The notes below the pieces were generated by a model. That model saw nothing but the letters and a program-made list of their open reading frames with translations, was not told the DNA's origin and searched no databases. Of a stretch of 51,940 nt of DNA, positions 4,405 through 46,641 are shown one piece after another. The position numbers were made by a program, and so were the translations under genes. The stretch is from the sequence record NC_079176, one strand, 5' to 3'. Origin of the DNA: Escherichia phage MLP1. Positions within the stretch are counted from its first letter, which is position 1. Each line of letters starts with the position of its first letter.

Positions 4405-4766
4405 TTAATCAACGCTTAGCTTTCAACAAATACACAACCACGGGTCGTCCTACTCTTGCAGTATACATAGAAGGTCATTACGACAATCTTAATAATTGGG
4501 TGGAAGACTCTTGGGAACCTCCGAAGAAGTTCCGCTGTACTCCTATTGCATATGGTGACAGGGATTCGGGTGTAGCTGGTCAACAGCTTAAAGCAACGGA
4601 TGTTGGTGAGCGTCAACCATCATTCATGAAGATTCATAGTCGTACTGAGATGCCGATGAAATCAATCATCACTGTTTACGGCATTCAGTATAAAGTCATA
4701 GCAATAAACGATTATGAAGATGCCGGATTCTTCTCTGTAATTGCCGCTCGTGTATTGGAGAAGTGA
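4401..4766 (+). CDS. hypothetical virion protein (neck region)
   Basis: Frame open from ATG 4350; TTG 4401 overlaps upstream stop (tTGA) and is the start chosen here; ends TGA 4764-4766. Confidence 0.3.
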   Translation: MINQRLAFNKYTTTGRPTLAVYIEGHYDNLNNWVEDSWEPPKKFRCTPIAYGDRDSGVAGQQLKATDVGERQPSFMKIHSRTEMPMKSIITVYGIQYKVIAINDYEDAGFFSVIAARVLEK

Positions 4767-5281
4767 TGGATATTCGACTCGAAGAACTACAGTCCATGAA
4801 AGAGATTGTAGATGTGTGTGTAGGTATTCCAAAGTTTACCTACAACATGCAAATCAATGCTCCCAGACCCCATGGGGAGTATGCCGCAATCAAATGTTTA
4901 TCAAGCACCAACCCAGGCTTTGACGAGAACAGGATAGTAACCATTGATGGTGAAGAAATGTTCCGTACTCGTGGTGTTCGTATTCTGACATTTGCAATAT
5001 TGTTTTCTCGTGAGGGTGATGAATTTATCAAGTTTGATAATTCGTTTTACCGTCCCGATGTTCAAGCCAAATTGAAGCAGGAGAAGTTTGCTGCTCTTGG
5101 TAAAGAACCTTTAAATCTTGCCACCATACAAATGGAAACCAATTGGGAAGTTCGCCAAGCGGTTAAAATGCAATTCAATATCATTCGTGAAGATTTGAGT
5201 CCTATCGGAGTCATGTCTGGCGCACATGTTGGTGGCAACTTCTATGATGGTAATACACTTATCACAACCAAAAAGGTTTAA
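4766..5281 (+). CDS. putative tail completion / sheath-terminator protein
   Basis: ATG 4766 overlaps upstream stop; lies immediately before sheath gene. Confidence 0.3.
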   Translation: MDIRLEELQSMKEIVDVCVGIPKFTYNMQINAPRPHGEYAAIKCLSSTNPGFDENRIVTIDGEEMFRTRGVRILTFAILFSREGDEFIKFDNSFYRPDVQAKLKQEKFAALGKEPLNLATIQMETNWEVRQAVKMQFNIIREDLSPIGVMSGAHVGGNFYDGNTLITTKKV

Positions 5282-5283
5282 TA

Positions 5284-6732
5284 ATGTCAATCCCAATTTC
5301 TGACTTAGTTCAGGTTGATATCGCAATCTCCCCGAACGCCATTGCGACTGATGGTTTTGGGCCGTTGCTCTTCCTGAGCAAAGAGTTTGTACCAACCGTT
5401 GATGTATATCCGGTTCGCTCGTATACCAGTTTGAAAGAAGTTCTCGCAGACTTCCCTGGTGGTGAGATTGCTAAAGCTGCTACCTCTTGGTACTCGCAGA
5501 AGCCAACTCCGAAGACTTTCCTGGTCGGTGCTATCAAGTATGATACTCTGACTCCAGCAACTCCTGCCACTGTTACTGCTGCAACTGCTGCTGTACTGGC
5601 AACGATTAAGCTGGAAACTGCTGCAACCTTGCAACTAAGTGCTAGCGGTGTTCAGTACGTTACTGACCCGATTGATTTCTCTTCTGCTGCCGACTTCGAC
5701 GAAGTTGCAAATTTGGTAACTACTGCACTGTCTTCTGTTGGCGCTGGTGTGACTGTTACTCAGGAAGCTGGTAAGTTTAAACTGACTACCTCTGCAACTG
5801 GCGCTAACGCAACTATCAGCAACGTTGGTGGTAAAGTTGGTGAAGTGTTGAAGCTGCAATCTTCTGACAGTGCAGTTATTGTTGCTGGTAAGAACGAGCT
5901 ATCTATCTCTTCCGACTTGTCTAATATTGCAGATGCTCCATTCAACTTCTTCTATGTAGGCCTTGACCGCCAGTATCGTGGCAAAACCTCTCCAGTAGAC
6001 AACCAAATGTCTGTGGCGAAGTGGTGTGAAGCATCTAGCAAAGTATTTGGCTGGGGTGATAACGACAAGAACATTCTTATCAACGGCACTGATAACAGCT
6101 TCCGTCGTGCTAAGAACCAGAACCTGCGTAACACTCTGTGTGTTTACGATGCTTCTGCGAATGGTGATGAATATCCGGAAATTTCTATCCTGGGTCGTGC
6201 ATCAACTGTCAACTTTAACGTTGCAAACTCTGTTCTTATTCTGGCATACAAGAAAGGTCCAGGTATCTCCACTGCTGACCTGTCTTCTGGTCAGGTAAGC
6301 GCACTGCTTTCTTGTGGTGGTAACGCATTCATTTCTGTTGCTGGCAACGTAATGTTCTACAACGGTCGTATGGCTGATGGCACATGGTTCGACTCCGTAC
6401 AGGGTGTTGAATGGCTGACTCAGAAAGTTCGACTGAACGTGTTCAACTTGTTCTACACCTCCAATACTAAGATTCCTTGGACGGACACTGGTGTAGCAAT
6501 GGTTAACCAGCAAGTAACCCTGGCGCTTGAACTCGCTAAGACTAACGGCCTCATTGCCCCTGGCTATGATAACGAAGGTGTCTTCTATCCAGAAGGCTAC
6601 AAAGTTATTTCTACTCCGTTAGAACTCTTGCAGTCGCAGAAGGGTGAACGTATTTGGGAAGGTACTTCCTTTATTGCTATCGGTTCCGGTGCAATCCAGG
6701 GTGCTGTAATCTCTGGCAACTTCATTCAGTAA
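5284..6732 (+). CDS. tail sheath protein (putative)
   Basis: 482-aa ORF followed by a 151-aa tube-sized ORF, a chaperone pair with frameshift and a tape-measure-like gene: the canonical contractile-tail order. Confidence 0.55.
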   Translation: MSIPISDLVQVDIAISPNAIATDGFGPLLFLSKEFVPTVDVYPVRSYTSLKEVLADFPGGEIAKAATSWYSQKPTPKTFLVGAIKYDTLTPATPATVTAATAAVLATIKLETAATLQLSASGVQYVTDPIDFSSAADFDEVANLVTTALSSVGAGVTVTQEAGKFKLTTSATGANATISNVGGKVGEVLKLQSSDSAVIVAGKNELSISSDLSNIADAPFNFFYVGLDRQYRGKTSPVDNQMSVAKWCEASSKVFGWGDNDKNILINGTDNSFRRAKNQNLRNTLCVYDASANGDEYPEISILGRASTVNFNVANSVLILAYKKGPGISTADLSSGQVSALLSCGGNAFISVAGNVMFYNGRMADGTWFDSVQGVEWLTQKVRLNVFNLFYTSNTKIPWTDTGVAMVNQQVTLALELAKTNGLIAPGYDNEGVFYPEGYKVISTPLELLQSQKGERIWEGTSFIAIGSGAIQGAVISGNFIQ

Positions 6733-6741
6733 GGGTGAACA

Positions 6742-7197
6742 GTGAAGCAATATTCGTTTTATAATACAGACCTCCTGATTGACGGTGCTCGTGTAGACGG
6801 TTTTCAGGCAGGGCAATCTGTAATTACGGCACGCTACAACGTGCCACAGCATGTTCCTGTTATGGATGCTTACGGCAAACTTGCTGTAGCAACCACTGCT
6901 GACCAGTCTGGGATTATCACTTTCCCACTGCTGCAAACGGCAGATTGGAACGAAATCCTCTACCAACGTGCACAGCTTTCTCGTGCAACTGGTTTGTCTG
7001 GTAACAAATCCCTCTGGGAACCTTTGCAGTTGCAGTTGGTTGACAAGATGGGTGATGTTCTGGTTAACGGTGTCAATGGTGCAATTCTGCAACAGCCAGC
7101 AATCGTTCGTGGTGTAACTTTCACTTCGAATATGTGGGCTGTGTTTGTAGAACGCCTTACCATCGTAACTGGCCAGTATCCAGAAATCGGCGTCTAA
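6742..7197 (+). CDS. tail tube protein (putative)
   Basis: 151-aa ORF directly after sheath; GTG start with AAGGGTGA ribosome-binding site. Confidence 0.5.
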   Translation: MKQYSFYNTDLLIDGARVDGFQAGQSVITARYNVPQHVPVMDAYGKLAVATTADQSGIITFPLLQTADWNEILYQRAQLSRATGLSGNKSLWEPLQLQLVDKMGDVLVNGVNGAILQQPAIVRGVTFTSNMWAVFVERLTIVTGQYPEIGV

Positions 7198-7213
7198 TAT
7201 AAGGTAAAAGAGA

Positions 7214-7672
7214 ATGGCTTGTGAACTTCGCCAACGCGAGTTGCAAGCCGACTCTGGTGATATAGTCTTGGTTGGTACACGACAACTCGGTGCCAGCCAG
7301 GCTCTTGACCTCCAGGTCGAGCTTGTTCAGAAACTCGGTATTTCGATATTCCCATTCGTTGAGAATAAATACAACTTTGCAGATATTATTCATTTGATGC
7401 AGCAAGGTGGAACTCATACGGAAGTAACAGAATTAATTAAACGTGTAGTGTGCATGGCAACCATTGATGGTGTCGAAGTTAATCCACGCACTATGCAGAT
7501 GAAGTACAACGGCAATCTAATGCTTATGCACCATGTGTTTGCATTTGTTCTTGAATCGAACTTCCTTGATTTTTTCAAGCAAGGGCTCGAACTCAACGAA
7601 CGCAGACAGTTGGAGGCGGTGGAAGCATCCAAAATGGCCGAGCAGAAGAATTCGAGTCCGGAAACGATTTAA
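7214..7672 (+). CDS. tail assembly chaperone (short form)
   Basis: Acidic 152-aa ORF between tube and tape-measure genes; contains slippery site T TTT TTC. Confidence 0.55.
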   Translation: MACELRQRELQADSGDIVLVGTRQLGASQALDLQVELVQKLGISIFPFVENKYNFADIIHLMQQGGTHTEVTELIKRVVCMATIDGVEVNPRTMQMKYNGNLMLMHHVFAFVLESNFLDFFKQGLELNERRQLEAVEASKMAEQKNSSPETI

Positions 7673-7848
7673 CTCAGAAGTTCCCGGAAATAAAATACTT
7701 CCTGCACCGTCCTGTAATAGAGGACAGTTCTCTCTGTTCTCTTAAAGAACTCTCGGACGGAACCTACTCTATTATGGATTTGTTAACTTTCCACGCAATA
7801 CTTGATTTGCGTAATGAACTAAAACCTAAAGAAGAAGACAATGGCTAA
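7570..7848 (+). CDS. tail assembly chaperone -1 frameshift extension (long form)
   Basis: -1 frame has TGA at 7567-7569 then stays open from the heptamer at 7570-7576 to TAA 7846-7848, overlapping the tape-measure start at 7841. Confidence 0.5.
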   Translation, partial: FFQARARTQRTQTVGGGGSIQNGRAEEFESGNDLTQKFPEIKYFLHRPVIEDSSLCSLKELSDGTYSIMDLLTFHAILDLRNELKPKEEDNG

Positions 7849-10800
7849 GAACTTAAAAGATTTAATGAAGCTATCCGAGGCCGAGCTAATCGGCATGGGT
7901 GCTCAATATGGTCTGTCCTTCAATCCCGGTATGCGCAAACGAGATATGGCTCAGCAACTTGAATCAAGTGCTGCGTCAGGTTGGATGGAAACAAATTCAC
8001 AGCTTTTGGGCGAACCAGATTCCCAAATGTACGAGGAGGAATCCTCTTACGGGACTTCTGATATGATTTCAGATGCAGCACACGTAGCACAGATGATTTC
8101 TGGTGCTGGGCTGACTGAAACATTCCATGCTGCAATGAACGGACCAGGACACCATGTAGAAGCAGTTCACGCATACATGGAACAACTTGGTGTATCCACT
8201 GATGATGTTTGGATGCACATGCCTAAAGCCAACCCCAACAAGTCGGAAGGACATTGGGGAATGCTTAATTCGTACATGCGAGATACTCTTGCAGGTCATC
8301 AAGATATTATGCCTGAACTTGCCGGACATTATACCGGCAATATCATGGATGAATATTCCACAAACCGTGGAGATATTGCCAAGTCGTTTGGTTATCTTGC
8401 CCACATGTATGTTGACCGTGAACAGTACGACAACCCAGACCGCTATGCACGAGATGTTTATCGTGTAGCCAAACGTTTAGAATCAGAATTGCCGCAAAAC
8501 TTCCGAGAAGTTGCTGCCGTATCTGCAATGAATGTAGGAAATAAGTCGGGGCCAAAACTTTCATACATGGATTCATTGCCTCAACTTGGTTCTGAATCTG
8601 TTGTTGGGGATATTCTACATCCTCGACAACCTCTTAACGCATCTGGTCTTCCGATGGGTTCGTTTGGTGGAGGCATTAAGGCTGAATATTCCCTATCTGC
8701 ATCCTTGTCTGGTTCTCCAGGTTGGTCTGATGTAAGCAAGACACTCTACCAAGATGTTTCTGGCGTAGTTAAATCTGCGGCAAAAGTTTATTCTGGTGGT
8801 GCTGAAAGAGGGATGAATGCGTATCGCACTCAATCTTCTGACAGGGATTTGATTCTGGACTCCGCCTCTCGTTATGCAGACATTGCAGACGTTCGTTCTG
8901 GGTACGATAACCTTAAGAAAGATATTGGCGATGACCCTCGTTACTCTGGTTCATCTATTCGTGGCGTTCTTGAGAATGCTCACCAATATAATGAAGCAGA
9001 AGTTTCTCGAACATTTGACCCTGCCGAACGTTTAAGAAATACTGGACCTACTGAACTTAGTACATCCAGTGAGTTTACGGCAAATTTAAATGAACCGACA
9101 AGTTGGAACTCTGCAAGAGATAGAAGAGAGTCTATTGCTATTGCAAATCTCGATAGTGCTAGCGTTGGACAGCATAGTTCGGTTAAGTACCATGATGCGC
9201 TCGAGCAAGGTACGCAGGAGTGGCTTGATTTTCGTAAGCAGTATGATATTACTGGCTCTACTATTGGTGATTATTTGGGCCACAACCCCGCAACCAATAA
9301 TAGCCCAATACATACAATGGGCGAAAAGATTGGCCTCACAGTAAGAAAGGATTCGCCACGAGCGCGTGAGAACTTTGAGCGTGGACATAGATTAGAGGCG
9401 TGGGCGAGGCCCAGGGTAGGTGAACGGTATGGGATTGAGATAACTGAAACTGGTGCAATCACAAACGACAACTACCCTGGCATGATGTACTCGCCGGATG
9501 GGTTAATTGGTGATGATGCTTTGTGGGAACATAAAGCTCCAAATAACTTTAAAGATTTGGAAACAACTCCAAACTACATGGACCAGATGCAACTTGGTAT
9601 GCATTTGAGTGGTCGTAGTCGCACACTGTTTACCCAAACTGTTGGTGAAGAATCTAGAAGTCAGTGGGTTGAAGCCGACCCAACGTGGTTTGAACGTAAC
9701 AAGAACAAGATTGAATCCTCTCAAGCACGTATGAATGCTGGCCGCGAGTTTATGGAAAGCTCCGACCTTGATGGCAAAGACCTTGTTAATGAAACCCGCA
9801 AAGTTATGTCCGGTGATGGGATTTGGGGCTATCAGACTCGTGACCACAGGGAAGGTGAGGGATACACTGCTGGCAAGCGCGGGATGGCTAAATTCAGTGC
9901 CACTGCTGGTACAGCCGATGACCCATTCATAGGCAACCGTACCAGTGCCGGAGTTGGCGAAGCTACAGCCTCTGCCGTAGGCTCTGACAGCACGACTGGC
10001 AATGACCTGATGGCAGTATCTGTCAAGAAAGGTATCCTCGCTGCTCAGGAAGAAAACAAGCTGCGTGGACAAGATGCTGACTTTGGTGGCGATGGTGGTC
10101 GTGGCGGTGGTGGTGGCTTCTGGGATACCTTCGATGCAAGCAGTTACGGCATTGGTGGAGGCGGTTCCGGTGGCGGTGGTCGTGGTGGTTGGAATGTTGG
10201 TGGCAGCTTCTCAGATGACTTCGGTCGTGCTGGTGGTGCATTGGCTGCTGGCGTAGCTGGTGGCAGCATAGGCTCACTATCCAATGGTGCAATGAATGCC
10301 CTCATGATGACCCCGTGGGGACGTGTGGCGGGTATGGCTATCGGTGCTACCCAGATTGGTAACGAGGCGCTCGAAGGTCTGAACGATTTCTACGGAAACT
10401 CTTTAGACGCTGGTGTCAATAACCCTAATGAATATTCTTCCATGTCACAGGGCTTGGAGATGTTAGGGCTTAATCAGCAACAAGCTGGCCGACTCAATCG
10501 AACCACACATAGTGCCTATAACACCCTCCTGAATGGCGACCCTAGCGGCGCTGTCAACATCGTTCAGGGAACCCGTGGTCTTATCACCATTGGCGACATT
10601 CGTGCGGCACAGGGCGACCCTGTAGCCTTAGCGCGGGTAATGCGTGAACGTGGTCAGGAGCGGGGCTGGAGTCAGGCTCGCATCGCTGGTGCTATGGAGA
10701 TGGCAGGACTGGATGGCATGGCTCGCGCCTATGACCGTACAGATTACAGCGTGAACGAGGCTCAGGAGAACGTAAGCCGTGGTGCCAACTCACAGTATGC

Positions 10801-11536
10801 CGATGGTATTGCACAGCTAGGAATAGCGCAGACGGAGCGTGCTGGGGTGCTGCCAGGATACGCAGTCCCGCAAGCTGCAATATCCTACGGGAGTTCATTT
10901 ATCGAAGCAGGTGGAGATGCGGCCAGAGTAGCGCGTACAGCGTCAAATGGTTTAGCTGATACTACCAGAACGGTATATGACTTTATCGCAGGAGAAGAGT
11001 CAGGAAACCGCGATTTGAACGCAGATGGTTCGGTGGTTACATCTCCGACTGGTGCCAAAGGTCGTATGCAGGTTCTTGATTCAACTTCCCGTGACCCAGG
11101 ATTCGGCGTTAAACCTGCCCGTGATAACTCACTGGAAGAGCGTGCTCGCGTTGGTCGTGACTACTATGATGCAATGCTCAAGCGTTACAATGGTGACGCT
11201 GAGAAGGCTATGGCGGCGTATACGGATGGTGCTGGAACTGTTGATGATGCTATCAACAATCACGGAACTGACTGGCTCAATGCTGTTCCTCTACAGGCAC
11301 AGAACCGCGTCAAGAAGTACCGCGAATGGGCTTCTCAAGGTGATTCTATTGCAGAAGGTGCAACTGGCTTCACCAGAAACGGACTGTCCTACGGGCAGAC
11401 ACAGGCCACTGTGGTTAACGTTGAAGTCAAAGCTACCGTAAACAATAAGCAAGCGTCTGCAACCGTGTCAACTCCGAACGGTCAAACTGTTACCCAAACA
11501 ATCAACATGGGTAATGGTGCAATGGAACGTAGATAA
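7841..11536 (+). CDS. tape-measure-like virion protein with internal lambda-exonuclease/YqaJ-like domain, Gly-rich segment and C-terminal lytic transglycosylase domain
   Basis: 1231 aa, between chaperone and baseplate genes. Near aa 450-580: EQGTQEW..R..YDITGS, SPDGL..D..WEHKAP, YMDQMQLGM (compare lambda Exo EQGDDAW..ITAS, SPDGL..LELKCP, YMAQVQYSM). aa 745-790 GGDGGRGGGGG repeats. aa 1050-1130: AGEESG, GAKGRMQV, AAYTDGAG (transglycosylase-like). Confidence 0.6.
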   Translation: MAKNLKDLMKLSEAELIGMGAQYGLSFNPGMRKRDMAQQLESSAASGWMETNSQLLGEPDSQMYEEESSYGTSDMISDAAHVAQMISGAGLTETFHAAMNGPGHHVEAVHAYMEQLGVSTDDVWMHMPKANPNKSEGHWGMLNSYMRDTLAGHQDIMPELAGHYTGNIMDEYSTNRGDIAKSFGYLAHMYVDREQYDNPDRYARDVYRVAKRLESELPQNFREVAAVSAMNVGNKSGPKLSYMDSLPQLGSESVVGDILHPRQPLNASGLPMGSFGGGIKAEYSLSASLSGSPGWSDVSKTLYQDVSGVVKSAAKVYSGGAERGMNAYRTQSSDRDLILDSASRYADIADVRSGYDNLKKDIGDDPRYSGSSIRGVLENAHQYNEAEVSRTFDPAERLRNTGPTELSTSSEFTANLNEPTSWNSARDRRESIAIANLDSASVGQHSSVKYHDALEQGTQEWLDFRKQYDITGSTIGDYLGHNPATNNSPIHTMGEKIGLTVRKDSPRARENFERGHRLEAWARPRVGERYGIEITETGAITNDNYPGMMYSPDGLIGDDALWEHKAPNNFKDLETTPNYMDQMQLGMHLSGRSRTLFTQTVGEESRSQWVEADPTWFERNKNKIESSQARMNAGREFMESSDLDGKDLVNETRKVMSGDGIWGYQTRDHREGEGYTAGKRGMAKFSATAGTADDPFIGNRTSAGVGEATASAVGSDSTTGNDLMAVSVKKGILAAQEENKLRGQDADFGGDGGRGGGGGFWDTFDASSYGIGGGGSGGGGRGGWNVGGSFSDDFGRAGGALAAGVAGGSIGSLSNGAMNALMMTPWGRVAGMAIGATQIGNEALEGLNDFYGNSLDAGVNNPNEYSSMSQGLEMLGLNQQQAGRLNRTTHSAYNTLLNGDPSGAVNIVQGTRGLITIGDIRAAQGDPVALARVMRERGQERGWSQARIAGAMEMAGLDGMARAYDRTDYSVNEAQENVSRGANSQYADGIAQLGIAQTERAGVLPGYAVPQAAISYGSSFIEAGGDAARVARTASNGLADTTRTVYDFIAGEESGNRDLNADGSVVTSPTGAKGRMQVLDSTSRDPGFGVKPARDNSLEERARVGRDYYDAMLKRYNGDAEKAMAAYTDGAGTVDDAINNHGTDWLNAVPLQAQNRVKKYREWASQGDSIAEGATGFTRNGLSYGQTQATVVNVEVKATVNNKQASATVSTPNGQTVTQTINMGNGAMERR

Positions 11537-11570: not shown

Positions 11571-11611
11571 AACATTATTTGAATATGTATTAATTTCAAT
11601 AGGTGTATAAC

Positions 11612-12709
11612 ATGCCGTGGATGCGTGGTATAGAGATAGTTGTCTCAAGAAAGGATGACCCAGAAGCCAAGTCTGTGTTTAAAGCGCACAAGATTGATTT
11701 CACCATCCGGTCAACTGTTGGTTGGCCAGCAGATACTGCCGATATTACTCTATACAACCTGGGCGTCGATGAAGTTAAATTCCTTCAAGACAAGTCTTAT
11801 GGTGATATGTATATTGAAATTCGTGCAGGGTACTATGAAGACGAGCGTATTGTTAATGCTGGTCACAACAAGTATCAAAGCCCAAGTCAGATGAATTCGG
11901 AAGTAAGGATTGAGATTGGCCAAGTCCTGCCAACAATCTTCTCTGGCATCGTAACAAACGCAGTTGGATTCAGACGTCCTCCAGAACACGTAACACAATT
12001 GTTTTGTATCTCCAAAGCCTATGGTGCATCTACTGAATTTACTCAGATGAAAGATATTCCAAATGGCGCAACTTTGGAAGATGCCATTCGTTCTATGTGT
12101 GCGGATTATGGCTTCTCCACCATTTCATCTTTTGGTGTTGAAGAGTCTGTATTCAAAACTCAATTGAAGTTAGGTCGGGTATTTCATGACACATTCTTGG
12201 AAGAATTCCGAACCTTGCTTGGAGAATATAATTTACTATTCTCTGTAACCACTGGTGAGATTCAAATCTTTCCAGATACCTACGGCAATAAAGATGCTGT
12301 AGACAGAATGTCAAAAGACCGTGAACCAATCAAGCTGGATGCCAACCAGGTTATTGGGAACCCCATTGCTGGCATTGCAACATACTCATTGAATACATTT
12401 CTGAATGCCAGTTATCAGCCAGGGATGATTCTGGATGTATCTCCTTTGCTGGGAGAACAGTTGCTGGCGAATGGTGTTACTTCGGTAACTGGAAAGGGTG
12501 TTGTTCTTAACACAGACCAAAGCGTGTTCCGTTGGGCGATGGAAGATAAATACTTCATCACAGAAGTTGTCCACCATGGCTCAACCCATGAAACTGTTTT
12601 CCAAACAACCATCACTGCAATGCTTGGTGGCAATACTGCAATGGGCGGTAAAGAAGCGGCTTGGCAGCAAGCCTACTTAAACAGTGGAATGGCTATGGAG
12701 TCTTTCTAA
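11612..12709 (+). CDS. tail/baseplate protein (first gene after tape measure)
   Basis: ATG 11612 with AGGTG ribosome-binding site; position only. Confidence 0.3.
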   Translation: MPWMRGIEIVVSRKDDPEAKSVFKAHKIDFTIRSTVGWPADTADITLYNLGVDEVKFLQDKSYGDMYIEIRAGYYEDERIVNAGHNKYQSPSQMNSEVRIEIGQVLPTIFSGIVTNAVGFRRPPEHVTQLFCISKAYGASTEFTQMKDIPNGATLEDAIRSMCADYGFSTISSFGVEESVFKTQLKLGRVFHDTFLEEFRTLLGEYNLLFSVTTGEIQIFPDTYGNKDAVDRMSKDREPIKLDANQVIGNPIAGIATYSLNTFLNASYQPGMILDVSPLLGEQLLANGVTSVTGKGVVLNTDQSVFRWAMEDKYFITEVVHHGSTHETVFQTTITAMLGGNTAMGGKEAAWQQAYLNSGMAMESF

Positions 12710-23921: not shown

Positions 23922-23955
23922 TCCGTGCTGTGCTAACAATGGCACAGGTTTGTGA

Positions 23956-23972
23956 TATTAGTTGGACGTGAA
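23956..23972 (+). promoter_or_regulatory. copy of recurrent 17-bp motif (tATTAGTTGGAcGTGAA), candidate phage promoter
   Basis: Member of an 8-copy family with consensus CATTAGTTGGATGTGAA, all in + orientation; 67 bp upstream of RNAP start. Confidence 0.4.
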
Positions 23973-24038
23973 TTGTGTAATGGCTACGCTATTATAATCC
24001 GTTTCATTCAAATCATACACAATCTTGGAGACTTACAA

Positions 24039-25979
24039 ATGACTACTATCACTACTCAAACTATCAAATCTGTTGTTCCTGCTATCACTGCTCTGGTATA
24101 CCGTGCCAAAGAGAAGCAGAACTACATGGTTCCACAGACTTGTGCTATTGCTGCCTTAGCCATATTCAAGATGATGACGTCTTTCACGCGTGATGACGTT
24201 ATTCCTGCTATCTCGATGGTTGAACTGGCTTCTGCTTCCATTGCTGATGCCAACCGTTACAACAACGACTTAAAGTCAATGCACTATGTTGACCCAGCTA
24301 TCAACCTCATTGGTTTGGCTAAACACTTCGGTTTCATCACCATGAACGAAGACAAATCGTTCCAGATGACTGATGCGTGGGTTGAACTGGTTACAACCAA
24401 AGATACCTCAGTTCCATTCACTGAGCGGGTAACAACTGAATCTCGTCGTAAGCCTTTCGTTAAGGGTGGCAAAGTTAAGCCATCCAAGACTCTGAAAGCT
24501 GCAATCGAATTCCTGCAAGATACTGAATATCACGTTGATGCAACAATGGTTAAGGTTATCTCTTCCATGTTAGAACAACGTACATTTGGTGGCTTACAGA
24601 TGCCAGAAGCAATCCAGACTGAACTCCATGTTTGGAACAATGCTGTAGCAATGGTTGGTCAGGACACTCTGTTCTCTGACTACTTTGCTGATAACCGTGG
24701 TCGTTTATATCACGTAGCATGTGCTGGTCCTAACCCACAATCATCTGACTTTGCTCGTTGCCTGTATTCCCACAATGTTGAGAACACTGTGAGCAAGTTT
24801 AATGCTGATGGTTCAACAACTCTGGCATACAACATGTTCATGCTTGAGCTGGAAGATATTGCTGGTGGAGACTGGACTTCTGCAAAACGTTTAACTTATG
24901 TTGCACAGAATCCTGCTGGTTCTTTGGCTCGTATGCTGAACATGCCTAAAGGTGAGCGTCCTTCCAAGCCATTCACTTATGTTCGTCTGGCTCTGGATTG
25001 GTTCAAGTTTGAGACTACAGGTGAGTGTGATTCTCGTGTAGGCTTTGGCTTAGATGCTAAATGTTCTGGTACTCAATACTTGGCATTCATTGCTGGTAAC
25101 ATGGAGATGGCTCGTGCAACAGGTCTGGTTGATTCTGAGACTAAAGCATCTGACCCATACCAGTTATCTCTTCGTGAACTGTTGAAGTTATTAGACCGTT
25201 CTTCAATGAAACCATCCGCTGAAATTATGGATGAATTCTTGAATCCGAAAGCTGGTCGTAAGTTTATCAAGACTCCATACATGGCTATTCAATATGGTGG
25301 TGGTAAAGCAGCATTAACTGGTTCTTCTGACTTCATTGCATACATGACAGAAGCTCTCCAGATTCCTATGGAGAAAGCTGATGCATTTGCTGAACTGTGT
25401 GTTGAAGCAATTCATAACGCATTGGGTGCTAAGATTAACATGTTCATTGAGAAAGCTGCTGATGCTGCATACAACCGTTGTGTTGAACTCAACAAAGAGT
25501 ACATCACATATAAGCACACTGATGGTCAAGTTGTAATGAAGCCTTGCTTCCCATCTCGTGATGTTTGTGATGCATTCAGCATTCGTGTTGACTCTCAAAC
25601 TCGTGTCATCTTTGGTCAGATTCAGGAAGAGAAACCTTGGACCATTCGTGAGTCCAATCCGACTAAAGAAGAATTCAAACGTACCTTCGTTGTTAACTAC
25701 ATTCAAGGTATTGACGCATTGGTTGCTCGTACTGTTGCAGTCAAAGCTAAAGAAGCTGGTCTTCGTGGCTTTACTTCAATTCACGACTGTTTCCGTTGCT
25801 GCTTAGCTGATGCTCCACTCATGATGGAAGTAATTCGTTCTGCTTATATTGAAATCTTTGTTAATAATAATCAGTTTGAATCTCTATCTAAGCAACTTGG
25901 TGGCATCAACATGTACCATGAGAACATCGTAACAGAAGAGCTTCTGATGAGCGAACACGCTTACTACTTCTGTCAATAA
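24039..25979 (+). CDS. single-subunit T7-type DNA-dependent RNA polymerase, compact form
   Basis: DAKCSGTQY (T7 motif A DGSCSGIQHF), RKFIKTPYMAIQYGGG (motif B), FTSIHDCF (motif C, T7 IHDSFG); ATG 24039 has GGAG ribosome-binding site; ORF track's upstream start at 23952 has none. Confidence 0.85.
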   Translation: MTTITTQTIKSVVPAITALVYRAKEKQNYMVPQTCAIAALAIFKMMTSFTRDDVIPAISMVELASASIADANRYNNDLKSMHYVDPAINLIGLAKHFGFITMNEDKSFQMTDAWVELVTTKDTSVPFTERVTTESRRKPFVKGGKVKPSKTLKAAIEFLQDTEYHVDATMVKVISSMLEQRTFGGLQMPEAIQTELHVWNNAVAMVGQDTLFSDYFADNRGRLYHVACAGPNPQSSDFARCLYSHNVENTVSKFNADGSTTLAYNMFMLELEDIAGGDWTSAKRLTYVAQNPAGSLARMLNMPKGERPSKPFTYVRLALDWFKFETTGECDSRVGFGLDAKCSGTQYLAFIAGNMEMARATGLVDSETKASDPYQLSLRELLKLLDRSSMKPSAEIMDEFLNPKAGRKFIKTPYMAIQYGGGKAALTGSSDFIAYMTEALQIPMEKADAFAELCVEAIHNALGAKINMFIEKAADAAYNRCVELNKEYITYKHTDGQVVMKPCFPSRDVCDAFSIRVDSQTRVIFGQIQEEKPWTIRESNPTKEEFKRTFVVNYIQGIDALVARTVAVKAKEAGLRGFTSIHDCFRCCLADAPLMMEVIRSAYIEIFVNNNQFESLSKQLGGINMYHENIVTEELLMSEHAYYFCQ

Positions 25980-26020
25980 CATTAATTGGTCAAGGATGAC
26001 CACAAACTTGGAGACTTAAA

Positions 26021-26119
26021 ATGAATACTCAACAAATCAAACAAATCGAAAATTGTTTCAATCCTCACCACACTTGCAGCATGATTGATTTATCTCGTCC
26101 TACAGTGGGGGGAGACTAA
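26021..26119 (+). CDS. small ORF (32 aa), hypothetical
   Basis: Initiation region CTTGGAGACTTAAAATG is near-identical to the RNAP one (CTTGGAGACTTACAAATG). Confidence 0.3.
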   Translation: MNTQQIKQIENCFNPHHTCSMIDLSRPTVGGD

Positions 26120-26227
26120 AGACTTCTTAGAATTGTTGTCAGAATATAAACAAGAGTCGCATGTATTATTGCACGCATTCTTGCATAATTCTGGATATTT
26201 CGATACAGAGATACCGTTCTGATATTT

Positions 26228-26250
26228 GGGAGCTTCGGCTCCCTTTTCTT
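26228..26250 (+). terminator. intrinsic terminator (GGGAGC-UUCG-GCUCCC then UUUUCUU)
   Basis: Perfect 6-bp GC stem, UUCG tetraloop, T-run; read directly. Confidence 0.55.
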
Positions 26251-26275
26251 GTTTCAACTAGTCTTAAGGTTGTAG

Positions 26276-33205: not shown

Positions 33206-33484
33206 ATGGAATATCAGGAAATACCGAAAGAATTAGAGCGTATGCAGGAGCGTACGTCTCGTGCAGAGGCAGAACTCCACCAACATTTGTCAAATCATGT
33301 GCAAGATTCCCGTAGTCTGAGACACGAAATTGAGGTTGGCAGATGCTGCTATCTAGTAACATATGAAGAGAAGACCGCCATCCTGGACATACTAGTAAAG
33401 GGCGGGAAAGGGCGAATCGAACAGCTCAAAATCCTTAATATGGAACTTCAAGGTATGTGGGAGAAACTCAATGCAAAACGATAA
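33206..33484 (+). CDS. hypothetical protein
   Basis: ATG 33206 has GGAG ribosome-binding site (track start 33194 lacks one). Confidence 0.35.
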   Translation: MEYQEIPKELERMQERTSRAEAELHQHLSNHVQDSRSLRHEIEVGRCCYLVTYEEKTAILDILVKGGKGRIEQLKILNMELQGMWEKLNAKR

Positions 33485-34019
33485 CATTACTAAAGCAGTG
33501 GAACAACTTAAGTCCTGGCGTAGAGATGAAACATTATTGGTTCGTTTCTACACAGGCGAAACTAATTCTGAATTTGAAGATGCGTGGATTGATGGTCTGG
33601 CATGGCGGCTCTATGACTTCAACATGTCAGAATATTTGCACGAAGAATATGGCATCGAGTACCCAGAAACAGGGACTTATGACATTCTCGAATCAAACGA
33701 AGAAGATGTTACAGAAATTTGCTTTGTTGATGGACTGTTCAGCATTCGCAGATATGACAAGTTCAACGAACTGCTTACTGACACTGACTTGGATATAATT
33801 CTTGCTGCATTCCGTAGCGATGAAATTGACATTTTCACTGTTGACGACTTGAACGACATGTTCATCACACGTTGCGACTCAATTGCAGACTATTTCAAGC
33901 AAAGTGAAGCACTGGATATTCCAGACCGCCTTGCACCATACATTGATTGGGAAGCAATTGTGAAAGACTTCGGCAGTGACTACATCTTCTCCGAAGGAGT
34001 ATTGTTCTTAAATGTGTGA
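33471..34019 (+). CDS. ardA: ArdA-like antirestriction protein (acidic DNA mimic), tentative
   Basis: Strongly acidic 182-aa protein; C-terminal YIDWEAIVKDFGSDYIFSEGVLF resembles the ArdA C-terminal block as recalled from memory. Confidence 0.45.
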   Translation: MQNDNITKAVEQLKSWRRDETLLVRFYTGETNSEFEDAWIDGLAWRLYDFNMSEYLHEEYGIEYPETGTYDILESNEEDVTEICFVDGLFSIRRYDKFNELLTDTDLDIILAAFRSDEIDIFTVDDLNDMFITRCDSIADYFKQSEALDIPDRLAPYIDWEAIVKDFGSDYIFSEGVLFLNV

Positions 34020-44171: not shown

Positions 44172-45035
44172 ATGGCATTTGCTGCTCCTACTCTGGCCTC
44201 GAACAAGACTCCTTCTGCTGCACCATTACTGGAAGCGGGTGGTTATCCTGCTCGTGTCTGCCGTATTATCGACCTGGGCTTACAGCCAGGCTCTGCTAAA
44301 TATCCAAACCCATCTCTGAAACTTCTGGTCACTTTCGAGCTGCTCGACGAGTACATGAAAGAAGTTGATGGCAATGGTGCTATGGTCATGGTCCAAGACC
44401 CGGACGAAGATGACGGCGTAATGATGGCGAAGAATCTTGAAGACAAGCCGCGTTGGTTTGACTTTGAGTTTACCTACAACGCTGACGGCTTCATGGGTGA
44501 CAACTCTCACATCTACAAATTCGCTAAAGCGATTGATGCGCTGGAAGTTAAACAGAATCTGGAACAAGGTATTCAGGGCCACCCTGCTAAGAACCTGCCA
44601 GATTGGTTGACCGAGCCTCTGGTTGTTGGCATTGTTCAGTATACCAAGCAGTCTGGCAAGAATGCTGGTCAGGTTGCAAACAAGGTTGCTACCTTCTCCC
44701 CAATGAAGTCTAAAGAGAAGAAAGAGGCCAAAGCTCTGGTTAACCCGACTGTGTTCTTCGACATGTCTGAGCCAGACCTAGAAGTGTTCAACAAGCTGCC
44801 TGGTGGCGATTCTCCTTACGCAATCAAGAACCGCATTACTGGCGGTGTTGACTTCTACAAAACCAAACTGTCTGTCCTGTTGGGCGGCAAACCTGCTGAT
44901 GATTCTGTTCCGAATCAGGCTTCTGATGAAGAGGTTGATGCAGCAATGAAGGCTGAACTGGAAGCTCAGGCTGCTGCAAAAGCACAGCGTGAAGCGGAAG
45001 GTGGTGCTGCTGGCGGCACTGGAATGCCGTTCTGA
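44172..45035 (+). CDS. abundant-looking replication-module protein, possibly ssDNA-binding
   Basis: Host-like optimal codons; Ala/Glu-rich C-terminal region ending GTGMPF; sits between polymerase and exonuclease; no diagnostic motif. Confidence 0.3.
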   Translation: MAFAAPTLASNKTPSAAPLLEAGGYPARVCRIIDLGLQPGSAKYPNPSLKLLVTFELLDEYMKEVDGNGAMVMVQDPDEDDGVMMAKNLEDKPRWFDFEFTYNADGFMGDNSHIYKFAKAIDALEVKQNLEQGIQGHPAKNLPDWLTEPLVVGIVQYTKQSGKNAGQVANKVATFSPMKSKEKKEAKALVNPTVFFDMSEPDLEVFNKLPGGDSPYAIKNRITGGVDFYKTKLSVLLGGKPADDSVPNQASDEEVDAAMKAELEAQAAAKAQREAEGGAAGGTGMPF

Positions 45036-46116: not shown

Positions 46117-46641
46117 ATGGCTTACGGTTATTGCGGTACGGAAGCCAAGTTTGTTTCTTGGCTCCAGTCTGCTATTCGCAGTGTTTGGTCTAAACATCCA
46201 AGCAAGCTATCTCTTATCCAGGCTCGACGTGTGGCATTGAAAGTTGGTACATCCAATAAACCAATATTCCACATTCAGTGTTATCACTGTAAGAAACTGT
46301 ATAAGTTGAAAGAGATTGAAGTGAACCACAAGAAACAGGTTGGAGGACTTCTTAAGTTAGAAGACCTTCACCGTTTTGTGGACAACCTTTTATTGGTTCA
46401 GCCAGAAGATTTGGAACTGCTGTGTCATGATTGTCATGGCATCATCACATACATGGAACGATATGGAGTATCTCGACGAGATGCAGTCATAGAGAAGAAG
46501 TGTATCGCCTTTGCCAAATTGAAGGATGACGAGCAAATTGCCAAGTGCAAACTCGCCAAGATTGACCCAATCCCTAAAACCAAAATCGGACGTAAGAATG
46601 CTGTCCGAGAATACTTGAGACTGAATCTTAATGACTATTAA
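46117..46641 (+). CDS. HNH endonuclease (putative homing endonuclease)
   Basis: CYHCKK...EVNHKK...LCHDCH. Confidence 0.7.
   Translation: MAYGYCGTEAKFVSWLQSAIRSVWSKHPSKLSLIQARRVALKVGTSNKPIFHIQCYHCKKLYKLKEIEVNHKKQVGGLLKLEDLHRFVDNLLLVQPEDLELLCHDCHGIITYMERYGVSRRDAVIEKKCIAFAKLKDDEQIAKCKLAKIDPIPKTKIGRKNAVREYLRLNLNDY

What the first reader, a model, noticed from the sequence alone, without database searches (positions are those of the whole stretch)
9190..9640. Lambda-exonuclease/YqaJ-like nuclease domain embedded in the tape-measure-like protein
Residues about 450-600 of the 1231-aa protein carry EQGTQEW..R..YDITGS, SPDGL..D..WEHKAP and YMDQMQLGM in the same order and spacing as lambda Exo. A PD-(D/E)XK 5'-3' exonuclease fold inside a protein sitting in the tape-measure position is unusual and suggests a nuclease delivered on infection or acting on the phage's own DNA ends.
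Basis: partly seen in the sequence, partly recalled or inferred. Interest (0 to 1): 0.7.

Follow-up and report, generated by a model that had tools for sequence, protein, structure and literature searches.

The report
Lambda-exonuclease domain inside phage tape measure
The tail "tape measure" protein of this coliphage, and of its whole family (Chaseviridae), contains an intact lambda-exonuclease-type DNA-end nuclease domain, so these phages probably carry a DNA-processing enzyme into the cell in their tails; nobody has tested this.

Summary
Residues ~448-657 (nt 9182-9811) of the 1231-aa ORF 7841..11536 are a YqaJ/lambda-Exo PD-(D/E)XK nuclease domain. Evidence: Pfam PF09588 E=6e-11, above the curated cut-off; family profile vs LHK-Exo 1e-38 and lambda Exo 2e-25; AlphaFold pLDDT 93.6 with TM 0.71-0.78 to LHK-Exo.

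The counterparts of lambda R28, E85, D119, E129, K131 and Q157 are R465, E519, D553, E563, K565 and Q582. All are invariant in 77 orthologues, and the domain is the best-conserved part of the protein.

The gene lies between the tail assembly chaperone (with its -1 frame extension) and the baseplate hub, which is the tape-measure position. It also carries a C-terminal SLT domain.

The window is Escherichia phage MLP1 (Chaseviridae). The fusion occurs in both subfamilies and in an uncultured relative. Some RefSeq records already call it "exonuclease/yqaJ". No paper discussing it was found.

Best explanation (inferred): a virion-borne 5'-3' exonuclease that leaves the tail just ahead of the DNA and acts on linear DNA ends, most likely the phage's own 2.3-3 kb terminal repeats.

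Verdict: a new variant of a known kind, of moderate to high interest. Function and delivery are untested.

The parts
7214..7672 (+). Tail assembly chaperone gene directly upstream
   Evidence: Pfam Phage_TAC_15 E=2.9e-14; phrog_11820 E=1.3e-57
7570..7843 (+). -1 reading frame open across the chaperone stop codon up to the start of the big ORF (likely frameshift extension of the chaperone)
   Evidence: Three-frame translation. phiEcoM-GJ1 annotates an overlapping gp61 at the same place. The slippery site was not mapped.
7841..11536 (+). 1231-aa multidomain protein in the tape-measure position (MLP1 gp13)
   Evidence: ORF list; 100% identical to Escherichia phage MLP1 QNG97_gp13; phrog_19855 'virion structural protein', full length, 1871 bits
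7841..7990 (+). N-terminal ~50 residues, possible Rho_N/helix-extension-helix-like motif (weak)
   Evidence: 5 of 20 orthologue N-termini hit Pfam Rho_N, best E=0.003; Rho N-domain chains in the PDB at E~0.4; pLDDT 70-82
8066..8986 (+). N-terminal folded block (res 76-382), mostly helical, function unknown
   Evidence: AlphaFold pLDDT ~80-90; no Pfam hit; no PDB fold match beyond the nuclease and SLT hits
9182..9811 (+). YqaJ / lambda-Exo-type PD-(D/E)XK nuclease domain (res 448-657): the finding
   Evidence: Pfam PF09588; PDB profile hits; AlphaFold pLDDT 93.6, pTM 0.89; Foldseek TM 0.71/0.78 to 3SYY and 0.69/0.65 to lambda Exo
9203..9259 (+). N-terminal motif EQGTQEW..R465..YDITGS (counterpart of the lambda Exo E18-Q-G...R28 5'-phosphate pocket)
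   Evidence: Q456, G457, W461, R465, T471, G472, S473 invariant in 77 orthologues; role of lambda Arg-28 from PMC11611040
9383..9409 (+). GHRLEAWAR helix carrying E519 (counterpart of lambda E85)
   Evidence: G515, H516, E519, R523 invariant; alignment to lambda Exo
9491..9541 (+). Catalytic core SPD553GL...WE563HK565AP (PD...ExK)
   Evidence: Y550-G557 and W562-K565 invariant in 77 orthologues; D, E and K also kept in the Nefertitivirinae orthologues and in the uncultured relative
9575..9601 (+). YMDQMQLGM motif (counterpart of lambda Y154-M-A-Q157-V-Q)
   Evidence: Y579, D581, Q582, Q584 invariant
10061..10240 (+). Glycine-rich, low-complexity, poorly conserved linker (res 741-800)
   Evidence: Composition scan; pLDDT <50; lowest conservation in the protein
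10223..10849 (+). Gly/Ala-rich mildly hydrophobic segment followed by a conserved helical region (res 795-1003)
   Evidence: Hydropathy peak at res ~800-818; helices with pLDDT >90 at 845-1000; shared with the Nefertitivirinae orthologue
10967..11341 (+). SLT lytic transglycosylase domain (res ~1043-1167) with the E1053-S1054 motif
   Evidence: Pfam PF01464 E=6.8e-7, above cut-off; E1053/S1054 at least 90% conserved; Slt/MltD fold matches
11603..12709 (+). Baseplate hub gene directly downstream
   Evidence: phrog_196 E=2.8e-46
23967..26266 (.). Stretch equivalent to the direct terminal repeat of the close relative PYps23T. These would be the physical genome ends, the proposed substrate. It contains the RNA polymerase gene 23952..25979.
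   Evidence: PYps23T 1-2339 equals 52531-54869 at 100% and maps here at 96%; the repeat was shown experimentally for PYps23T (PMC8762354); RNA polymerase phrog_414

Best explanation
SHOWN. Residues ~448-657 of the tape-measure-position protein are a true, apparently catalytically competent member of the YqaJ/lambda-Exo family of Mg-dependent 5'->3' dsDNA-end exonucleases. The domain is an ancestral and strongly constrained module of this protein in both Chaseviridae subfamilies.

INFERRED MECHANISM. The protein is built into the tail lumen as the tape measure. Its C-terminus (SLT domain) sits at the tail tip, and its N-terminal half, nuclease included, faces the head next to the leading DNA end. 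On infection it is expelled ahead of the DNA. The SLT domain cuts peptidoglycan. The Gly-rich and hydrophobic middle helps to cross the envelope. The nuclease domain refolds at or in the cytoplasm; three tape-measure copies could form one lambda-Exo-like ring. There it engages a 5'-phosphorylated linear DNA end, most probably the phage's own 2.3-3 kb direct terminal repeats. Resection would leave 3' tails that can anneal, giving circles or concatemers, and that are poor substrates for RecBCD. Functionally this would resemble phage Mu protein N (gp43), a tail protein that enters with the DNA and circularises it.
For: Identity: Pfam YqaJ above cut-off; profile vs LHK-Exo 1.4e-38 and lambda Exo 2e-25; AlphaFold pLDDT 93.6 and TM 0.71-0.78 to 3SYY.

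Active site: R465, E519, D553, E563, K565, Y579 and Q582 are invariant in 77 orthologues of 43-91% identity. They are kept in relatives of 26-32% identity and in the Nefertitivirinae.

Constraint: 28% of columns are invariant in the domain, against 3-10% elsewhere. 29 of the 50 invariant columns lie in 17.5% of the length, p=5e-11.

Tail and virion context: the order sheath-tube-chaperone(-1 frame)-ORF-hub is seen here, in a distant uncultured genome and in ZPAH14, SppYZU05, VPs20 and PVN03. The 4HA13 orthologue gave the second most abundant peptides, with 64-67% coverage, in phage-particle LC-MS/MS.

Substrate: genomes are linear, terminally redundant and non-permuted. A 2,339-bp exact repeat is present in PYps23T and was verified experimentally.

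Precedent: Mu gp43 accompanies the DNA into the cell and circularises it. The Mu tape measure is a trimer in the tube lumen with its C-terminus at the hub (PMC11915804). Lambda Exo is a trimer whose Arg-28 binds the 5' phosphate.
Against: There are no activity, delivery or substrate data for any orthologue.

A folded lambda-Exo-like ring (channel 15-30 A) is wider than a tail-tube lumen of about 4 nm (own knowledge). The domain would have to travel unfolded or as a monomer and then refold.

The 4HA13 preparation also contained the non-structural SSB at 62% coverage, so that mass spectrometry is not proof of virion location. Peptides were not mapped to the nuclease region.

No single-strand annealing partner is adjacent, and none was found among 10 early/middle ORFs tested.

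The phage has a separate T7 gp6-like exonuclease.

The terminal repeat carries the RNA polymerase gene, so deep resection of the entering end would transiently remove its duplex template.

No Pfam tape-measure family matches the protein.
Confidence: 0.4

Rival explanations
1. The nuclease works in the producing cell, not after ejection. The fusion protein is made late and in quantity. Before it is locked into tails, it would serve as a recombination or concatemer-processing exonuclease. The fusion would be a way to express the enzyme, and its presence in the virion would be incidental.
For: YqaJ/lambda-Exo enzymes normally act in replication and recombination. The phage replicates in a T7-like manner with terminal repeats that must be regenerated from concatemers. 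A folded ring cannot fit in the tube, so the domain may only be active outside it (inference).
Against: The fusion at the same internal position has been kept across both subfamilies and in relatives of 26-32% identity. No free-standing copy was seen in the annotated relative PYps23T. That argues the link to the tail protein is itself selected. A dedicated T7 gp6-like exonuclease already exists.
Confidence: 0.2
2. The domain is a delivered weapon against non-phage DNA. It would attack linear or nicked host DNA, competing phage or plasmid DNA, or DNA components of defence systems, as host takeover or counter-defence.
For: Virion-delivered enzymes that act before any phage gene is expressed are known (N4 virion RNA polymerase, P1 Dar proteins; own knowledge). 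The active site is intact. Condensed nucleoids and reduced DAPI signal were reported late in infection by the Carltongylesvirus Tiny (PMC13340011), but no cause was assigned.
Against: Lambda-Exo-type enzymes need a dsDNA end with a 5' phosphate, and the intact circular chromosome offers none. Only about three copies per virion would be delivered. Nothing links the gene to any defence system.
Confidence: 0.15
3. The domain is a non-hydrolytic DNA-end clamp or plug. It would hold the 5'-phosphorylated genome end in the neck or tail, or protect it from RecBCD after entry in the manner of T4 gp2 or Mu N, with the catalytic chemistry unused or suppressed.
For: The Arg of the 5'-phosphate pocket and the whole binding cleft are invariant. 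By analogy with Mu, the N-terminal half of the tape measure faces the DNA end. Mu N and T4 gp2 protect DNA ends (own knowledge).
Against: The D553, E563, K565 and E519 counterparts of the metal-binding and catalytic residues are strictly invariant even at 26-32% overall identity. That is hard to explain without catalysis. Binding-only descendants of PD-(D/E)XK enzymes usually lose these residues (own knowledge).
Confidence: 0.15
4. The domain is a chance resemblance, a mobile insertion (intein or homing endonuclease), or an assembly or annotation artefact.
For: The genome carries homing endonucleases. One relative, pAh6-C, has the gene split into two CDS.
Against: The E-values are far beyond chance. 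The domain sits at the same internal position in all 77 close orthologues, in both subfamilies and in metagenomic relatives. No variant without it was found, so it is not a recent mobile insertion. The pAh6-C split lies inside the domain, and the sister phages have a single ORF there.
Confidence: 0.01

Closest known systems
Lambda exonuclease / LHK-Exo / YqaJ (PF09588; exonuclease half of phage SynExo recombination pairs)
   Same: Same fold, same motif order and spacing, same catalytic D...ExK, the same Arg of the 5'-phosphate pocket, and the same Y..Q motif.
   Different: It is not a free-standing ~200-300-aa enzyme encoded next to an annealase in a recombination module. It is buried at residues ~448-657 of a 1231-aa tail protein, with no adjacent RecT/Red-beta-type partner. 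Oligomeric state and activity are unknown. It has a 9-residue deletion between K565 and Y579 relative to lambda Exo.
Tape measure proteins with embedded enzymatic domains (mycobacteriophage TM4 Rpf/peptidoglycan-hydrolase motif, PMC1796659; enterococcal phage tape measures with lytic transglycosylase, PMC10194240)
   Same: Same gene position and the same principle: an enzyme is carried inside the tail-length ruler and released at infection. This protein also has such a muralytic SLT domain.
   Different: The known embedded activities act on the cell wall. Here the extra domain is a DNA exonuclease whose substrate is inside the cell. No paper describing a nuclease in a tape measure was found.
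Phage Mu protein N (gp43, tube initiator / DNA circularisation protein)
   Same: A tail-lumen-associated protein that enters the cell with the DNA, acts on the ends of the linear genome and circularises it. This is the closest functional precedent for the proposed role.
   Different: There is no sequence or fold relationship. Mu N joins the ends non-covalently by binding them (own knowledge). It is the tube initiator, not the tape measure, and it has no nuclease motif.
T7 gp16 and other ejected internal proteins carrying an SLT domain
   Same: A large, multidomain, ejected virion protein with a lytic transglycosylase domain, in a phage that encodes a T7-like RNA polymerase (T7 gp16 from own knowledge).
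   Different: T7 gp16 is a head-core protein of a podovirus, with the SLT domain at its N-terminus and no nuclease. This protein is encoded in the tail module of a myovirus.
RefSeq annotations of the Chaseviridae orthologues ('exonuclease', note 'yqaJ', Aeromonas phage ZPAH14 YP_010656754; 'putative endonuclease', phage SKA49)
   Same: The same protein family and the same domain call.
   Different: These are automatic or name-only annotations that ignore the tail context. Most other records call the gene tail fiber, tube initiator, tape measure or hypothetical.

Membership tests
YqaJ / lambda-Exo family (Pfam PF09588, PD-(D/E)XK superfamily) | Significant match to the family profile above the curated threshold | tested here: met
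   43.3 bits against a cut-off of 22, E=5.9e-11, profile positions 1-149 of 150. Orthologues score 25-76 bits.
YqaJ / lambda-Exo family (Pfam PF09588, PD-(D/E)XK superfamily) | Sequence homology to structurally characterised members | tested here: met
   Profile of 32 sequences vs PDB: 3SYY 1.4e-38; 1AVQ/3SLP/3SM4/6M9K ~2e-25; mimivirus R354 5e-13.
YqaJ / lambda-Exo family (Pfam PF09588, PD-(D/E)XK superfamily) | Lambda-Exo-like alpha/beta fold | tested here: met
   AlphaFold pLDDT 93.6, pTM 0.89. Foldseek: 3SYY TM 0.71/0.78, rmsd 3.2 A; lambda Exo TM 0.69/0.65. This is a predicted structure, not an experimental one.
YqaJ / lambda-Exo family (Pfam PF09588, PD-(D/E)XK superfamily) | Catalytic PD...(D/E)xK residues (lambda D119, E129, K131) plus the upstream acidic residue (E85) | tested here: met
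   D553, E563, K565 and E519 are invariant in 77 orthologues, in 53 sequences including distant ones, and in the Nefertitivirinae. The lambda numbering was checked against a remembered lambda Exo sequence that reproduces the PDB alignment coordinates and the K131A entry title.
YqaJ / lambda-Exo family (Pfam PF09588, PD-(D/E)XK superfamily) | Arg that binds the 5' phosphate (lambda Arg-28) | tested here: met
   R465 aligns with R28 and is invariant. The role of Arg-28 is taken from PMC11611040.
YqaJ / lambda-Exo family (Pfam PF09588, PD-(D/E)XK superfamily) | Ring-shaped oligomer (trimer or tetramer) that encircles DNA | not testable with these tools
   Only monomer prediction is available. Three tape-measure copies per tail (Mu) would match a trimer, but that is inference.
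YqaJ / lambda-Exo family (Pfam PF09588, PD-(D/E)XK superfamily) | Mg-dependent processive 5'->3' exonuclease activity on dsDNA ends | not testable with these tools
   Needs biochemistry.
SynExo recombination module (exonuclease plus single-strand annealing protein) | Gene adjacent to or co-expressed with a RecT/Red-beta/Erf-type annealase | tested here: not met
   The neighbours are tail genes. None of 10 early/middle ORFs tested is an annealase, and none is annotated in PYps23T. Not every ORF was scanned.
Tail tape measure protein | Gene located between the tail assembly chaperone (with frameshift extension) and the baseplate hub / tube initiator | tested here: met
   The same order is seen in phiEcoM-GJ1, PYps23T, the uncultured genome L005, ZPAH14, SppYZU05, VPs20 and PVN03. 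It is the only large gene in that interval.
Tail tape measure protein | Present in virions | tested here: inconclusive
   The 4HA13 orthologue gave 64-67% coverage and was second in peptide abundance, but the non-structural SSB was in the same preparation. phiEcoM-GJ1 gp62 is annotated 'virion structural protein'; the original paper is not held.
Tail tape measure protein | Length that scales with tail length; extended helical ruler | tested here: inconclusive
   1231 aa x 0.15 nm = 185 nm. Without the nuclease and SLT domains (~335 aa) it is ~134 nm, against reported tails of 116-166 nm. AlphaFold shows several compact blocks and long disordered linkers rather than one long coiled coil.
Tail tape measure protein | Match to a curated tape-measure family profile | tested here: not met
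   Only YqaJ and SLT were found at E<0.1 in Pfam. PHROGs gives only 'virion structural protein'.
SLT lytic transglycosylase (PF01464) | Profile match above cut-off and the catalytic Glu-Ser motif | tested here: met
   29.3 bits against a cut-off of 21.3. E1053-S1054 are at least 90% conserved. Slt/MltD fold hits. No SLT hit in the Nefertitivirinae orthologue ZPAH14.
Intein / homing-endonuclease insertion | Sporadic presence or absence among orthologues; splicing or HNH/LAGLIDADG motifs | tested here: not met
   The domain is present in every orthologue examined, at the same position. No such domains were detected.

The most novel reading that the evidence does not exclude
The three tape-measure copies expelled from the tail could rebuild a lambda-Exo-like ring, anchored at the cytoplasmic mouth of the injection channel through their membrane-associated middle segments. 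The entering genome end would thread into this tethered ring. Processive 5'->3' digestion of one strand of the redundant terminal repeat would then act as a ratchet that helps pull in the first 2-3 kb. At the same time it would hide the end from RecBCD and create the 3' tail that anneals with the other repeat to circularise the genome. That would be a nuclease used as a DNA-entry motor and end-processing device built into a tail ruler.
Probability: 0.07. Interest if true: 0.85.

Novelty: new variant of a known kind. Interest (0 to 1): 0.6.

Why it matters
Tape measure proteins are known to carry cell-wall-degrading domains. A conserved, apparently active DNA-end exonuclease inside one implies two things. 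First, part of the tape measure reaches the cytoplasm. Second, the first enzymatic step on the incoming genome may be carried out by a structural tail protein before any phage gene is expressed. That bears on three open questions: how far tape measures travel during injection, how terminally redundant genomes are protected from RecBCD and joined early in infection, and what cargo contractile tails can deliver through their lumen. The last point is relevant to engineering tailocins and contractile injection systems. The system is easy to test. The phages grow on E. coli K-12 or UPEC, the catalytic residues are unambiguous (D553, E563, K565, R465), and the domain should be expressible on its own.

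Tried and rejected
- Chance match or degenerate domain: rejected by the E-values, the predicted fold and the invariant catalytic residues.
- Recent mobile insertion or intein: rejected, because the domain is present at the same site in all orthologues of both subfamilies.
- Looked for orthologues without the domain. Five proteins lack a precomputed PF09588 call; the sequences of all five (P0016, P0044, P0059, P0074, P0078) still contain the full motifs, so these are threshold effects.
- pAh6-C seemed at first to have a short 592-aa tape measure without the domain. In fact the domain straddles two annotated CDS, and the sister phages have a single ORF there.
- Searched for the same fusion outside Chaseviridae. 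In the best 150 of 31,711 profile hits, and in the top 50 BFVD fold hits, all proteins of 800 aa or more are Chaseviridae-type. Lower-ranked hits could not be inspected.
- P0201 (1446 aa) could not be placed on a viral contig.
- N-terminal block, res 76-382: no Pfam, PHROG-function or PDB match. The N-terminal Rho_N-like motif is only weakly supported.
- Annealase partner: none among 10 ORFs tested. The scan was not exhaustive.
- Literature: no paper combines Chaseviridae with YqaJ, or tape measure with nuclease domain and ejection. The founding papers on phiEcoM-GJ1 and vB_EamM-Y2 are not held, so an earlier remark there cannot be excluded.
- The second homologous-protein search, with the domain alone, returned only six stand-alone YqaJ proteins.
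Full report
**What is there**

The window is a circularly opened copy of Escherichia phage MLP1 (Chaseviridae, Cleopatravirinae, Carltongylesvirus-like). The 1231-aa product of ORF 7841..11536 (+) is 100% identical to MLP1 QNG97_gp13. Its DNA is 97% identical to the 'tape measure protein' gene of Yersinia phage PYps23T.

- EQGTQEW at residues 455-461
- R465
- YDITGS at 468-473
- SPDGL at 551-555
- WEHKAP at 562-567
- YMDQMQLGM at 579-587

**Is it more than chance?**

Yes, by every test applied.
- Pfam YqaJ (PF09588) matches residues 460-592 over essentially the whole profile, at 43.3 bits against a curated cut-off of 22 (E=5.9e-11).
- PHROGs gives 'RecE-like recombination exonuclease' at E=5.8e-21.
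- The single sequence finds the Laribacter alkaline exonuclease LHK-Exo (3SYY) at 2e-9.
- A profile of 26 tape-measure segments plus 6 stand-alone YqaJ proteins (alignment A2) finds LHK-Exo at 1.4e-38, lambda exonuclease (1AVQ, 3SLP, 3SM4, 6M9K) at about 2e-25, and mimivirus R354 at 5e-13.
- AlphaFold2 of residues 436-650 gives mean pLDDT 93.6 and pTM 0.89.
- Foldseek places that model on LHK-Exo (TM 0.71/0.78) and lambda Exo (TM 0.69/0.65) ahead of all other PDB folds.

**Active site**

I used a remembered lambda Exo sequence. It reproduces the PDB alignment coordinates and the K131A label of entry 3SM4. The correspondence is:

| Lambda Exo | This protein |
|---|---|
| E18-Q-G | E455-Q-G |
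| R28 | R465 |
| E85 | E519 |
| D119 | D553 |
| E129 | E563 |
| K131 | K565 |
| Y154/Q157 | Y579/Q582 |

The D-to-E-to-K spacing is identical. Arg-28 is the 5'-phosphate pocket that drives processive 5'->3' digestion, and K131 is the catalytic lysine (PMC11611040).

All of these residues are invariant in 77 full-length orthologues of 43-91% identity. They remain invariant when metagenomic relatives of only 26-32% identity are added.

The domain is the most constrained part of the protein. It has 28% invariant columns, against 3-10% in the other regions. In the broader alignment, 29 of the 50 invariant columns fall in the 17.5% of the length that is the domain (hypergeometric p=5e-11). This pattern is what an enzyme under selection for catalysis would show.

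**The rest of the protein and its context**

Upstream lie the sheath (DUF3383/phrog_205), the tube (phrog_280) and the tail assembly chaperone (Phage_TAC_15). Downstream lie the baseplate hub (phrog_196) and a Dit-like tube initiator. The -1 frame is open from inside the 3' end of the chaperone gene to the start of the big ORF, as expected for the usual chaperone frameshift product. This is the only large gene in the interval, so it occupies the tape-measure position.

A model of residues 1-1200 (mean pLDDT 71.8) shows beads on a string:
- a short N-terminal helical motif, weakly Rho_N/HeH-like
- a confidently folded but unidentifiable block at residues 76-382
- the nuclease at residues 448-657
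- a long disordered, glycine-rich linker at residues 665-840, with a mildly hydrophobic Gly/Ala segment near residue 800
- a conserved helical region at residues 845-1003
- an SLT lytic transglycosylase at residues ~1043-1167, with its Glu-Ser motif conserved

No curated tape-measure profile matches.

**Distribution**

Full-length orthologues occur in 78 phage records, all Chaseviridae-type, from Escherichia, Yersinia, Erwinia, Pectobacterium, Proteus, Pantoea and Aeromonas phiA050.

A profile search of 1.84 billion representative proteins found 31,711 YqaJ-type proteins. Among the best 150, every protein of 800 aa or more is one of these tail proteins or a distant relative with the same YqaJ(+SLT) layout. 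One such relative, P0098, sits between sheath-tube-chaperone and the baseplate hub in a 51.8-kb uncultured viral genome.

The second subfamily, Nefertitivirinae (Aeromonas, Shewanella and Vibrio phages), has a 1205-1276-aa ORF in the same position. It carries a YqaJ domain (Pfam E=1e-7 in ZPAH14) that keeps the R, E, D, E-x-K and Q residues. It has no SLT hit. The nuclease is therefore more widely conserved in this protein than the muralytic domain.

In pAh6-C the gene is annotated as two CDS, with the domain split across them. This is probably a frameshift error.

BFVD fold hits show the same picture: the only large viral proteins among the top 50 are from Chaseviridae.

**What was already known**

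Others call it tail fiber, tail tube initiator, tape measure or hypothetical.

In the searchable literature no paper combines Chaseviridae with YqaJ. None describes a nuclease domain in a tape measure. The two founding papers are not held. So the domain call exists in databases, but its meaning has not been discussed or tested as far as I can see.

**How it most likely works**

Shown:
- the domain's identity
- its intact and strongly constrained active site
- its fixed position in a tail-module protein across the family
- the linear, non-permuted genomes of these phages with 2.3-3 kb direct terminal repeats. The ICTV profile states this. An exact 2,339-bp repeat is present in PYps23T, and the repeat was verified experimentally. 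The 4HA13 repeat is 3,120 bp.

Supported by literature on an orthologue: the protein is abundant in phage particle preparations, with 64-67% coverage. The caveat is that SSB was also detected in that preparation.

Inferred by analogy with Mu: the Mu tape measure is a trimer in the tube lumen with its C-terminus at the hub, and the Mu tail protein gp43/N enters with the DNA and circularises it. On that model:
1. The C-terminal SLT end leaves first and cuts the wall.
2. The Gly-rich and hydrophobic middle helps to cross the envelope.
3. The N-terminal half, with the nuclease, leaves last, next to the leading DNA end.
4. There it could refold, perhaps as a trimer formed from the three tape-measure copies.
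5. It would resect the 5' strand of the terminal repeats. The exposed 3' tails of the two repeats are complementary, so they could anneal into circles or concatemers. They are also poor RecBCD substrates.

Confidence in this full chain is about 0.4. Confidence in the domain identity is above 0.95.

**Difficulties**

- A lambda-Exo-like ring cannot fit in a ~4 nm tube, so unfolding and refolding, or monomeric transit, is required.
- No annealase partner was found.
- A T7 gp6-like exonuclease exists separately.
- The terminal repeat contains the RNA polymerase gene, so extensive resection of the entering end has a cost.

**Rivals**

- Action in the producer cell before assembly (0.2)
- A delivered weapon against non-phage DNA (0.15)
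- A non-hydrolytic end clamp (0.15)
- An artefact or mobile insertion (rejected, 0.01)

**Verdict**

This is a new variant of a known kind: a tape measure carrying an embedded enzyme, where the enzyme is a DNA-end exonuclease. It is universal in one phage family, half-recognised by automatic annotation, and not characterised. Interest 0.6.

Noticed in passing
window 23952-26266: The single-subunit RNA polymerase gene (23952..25979, phrog_414) lies inside the stretch equivalent to the 2,339-bp direct terminal repeat of PYps23T. Virion DNA would therefore carry two copies of the polymerase gene, one at each end.
   Followed up: partly
L007 (Aeromonas phage pAh6-C, NC_025459) 4608-7741: Two CDS are annotated (gp10, 592 aa; gp11, 453 aa), overlapping by 7 nt. 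Sister phages have one ORF of 1205-1276 aa here. The YqaJ domain starts at the C-terminus of gp10 and continues in gp11, so this is probably a frameshift error in the record.
   Followed up: yes
window 7570-7843: The -1 frame is open across the stop codon of the tail assembly chaperone gene up to the start of the big ORF, consistent with a programmed frameshift product. The slippery site was not located.
   Followed up: partly
window 8066-8986 (res 76-382): A confidently predicted N-terminal block (pLDDT ~80-90) with many invariant His/Asp/Tyr/Gly residues (H126, H163, D78, D205, Y190, Y196) has no Pfam, PHROG-function or PDB match. It is an unknown conserved domain of the same protein.
   Followed up: partly
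window 7841-7990 (res 1-50): The N-terminus weakly resembles the Rho N-terminal / helix-extension-helix motif (5 of 20 orthologues, best E=0.003). This would be a possible nucleic-acid-binding or docking element, but it is not significant on its own.
   Followed up: partly
window 10646-11317 (res 936-1159): This C-terminal part is 44% identical to the 'lysis protein' of the 45-kb Caulobacter phages SR18, BL94 and RapA. A helical+SLT module is thus shared with unrelated phages.
   Followed up: no
PP952070.1 (Staphylococcus phage Pel53), match to window 8063-9934: A record labelled as a Staphylococcus hyicus phage is 88% identical in DNA to this coliphage gene and encodes a 76%-identical full-length orthologue (P0014). 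The host label looks doubtful.
   Followed up: no
L008, L009, L010, L011 (Nefertitivirinae-type orthologues): These orthologues keep the YqaJ domain. The only one scanned against Pfam, ZPAH14 (L008), has no SLT hit; the other three were tested only for the YqaJ domain. At least in ZPAH14 the muralytic domain is the dispensable one.
   Followed up: partly
window 44172-45035: A 287-aa ORF between the DNA polymerase and the T7 gp6-like exonuclease matches only PHROGs of unknown function (phrog_862). It was not examined as a possible annealing or recombination partner.
   Followed up: no
window 33471-34019 and 46117-46641: An 'anti-restriction protein' homologue (phrog_14321) and an HNH endonuclease (phrog_1985) are encoded in the early/middle region.
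   Followed up: no
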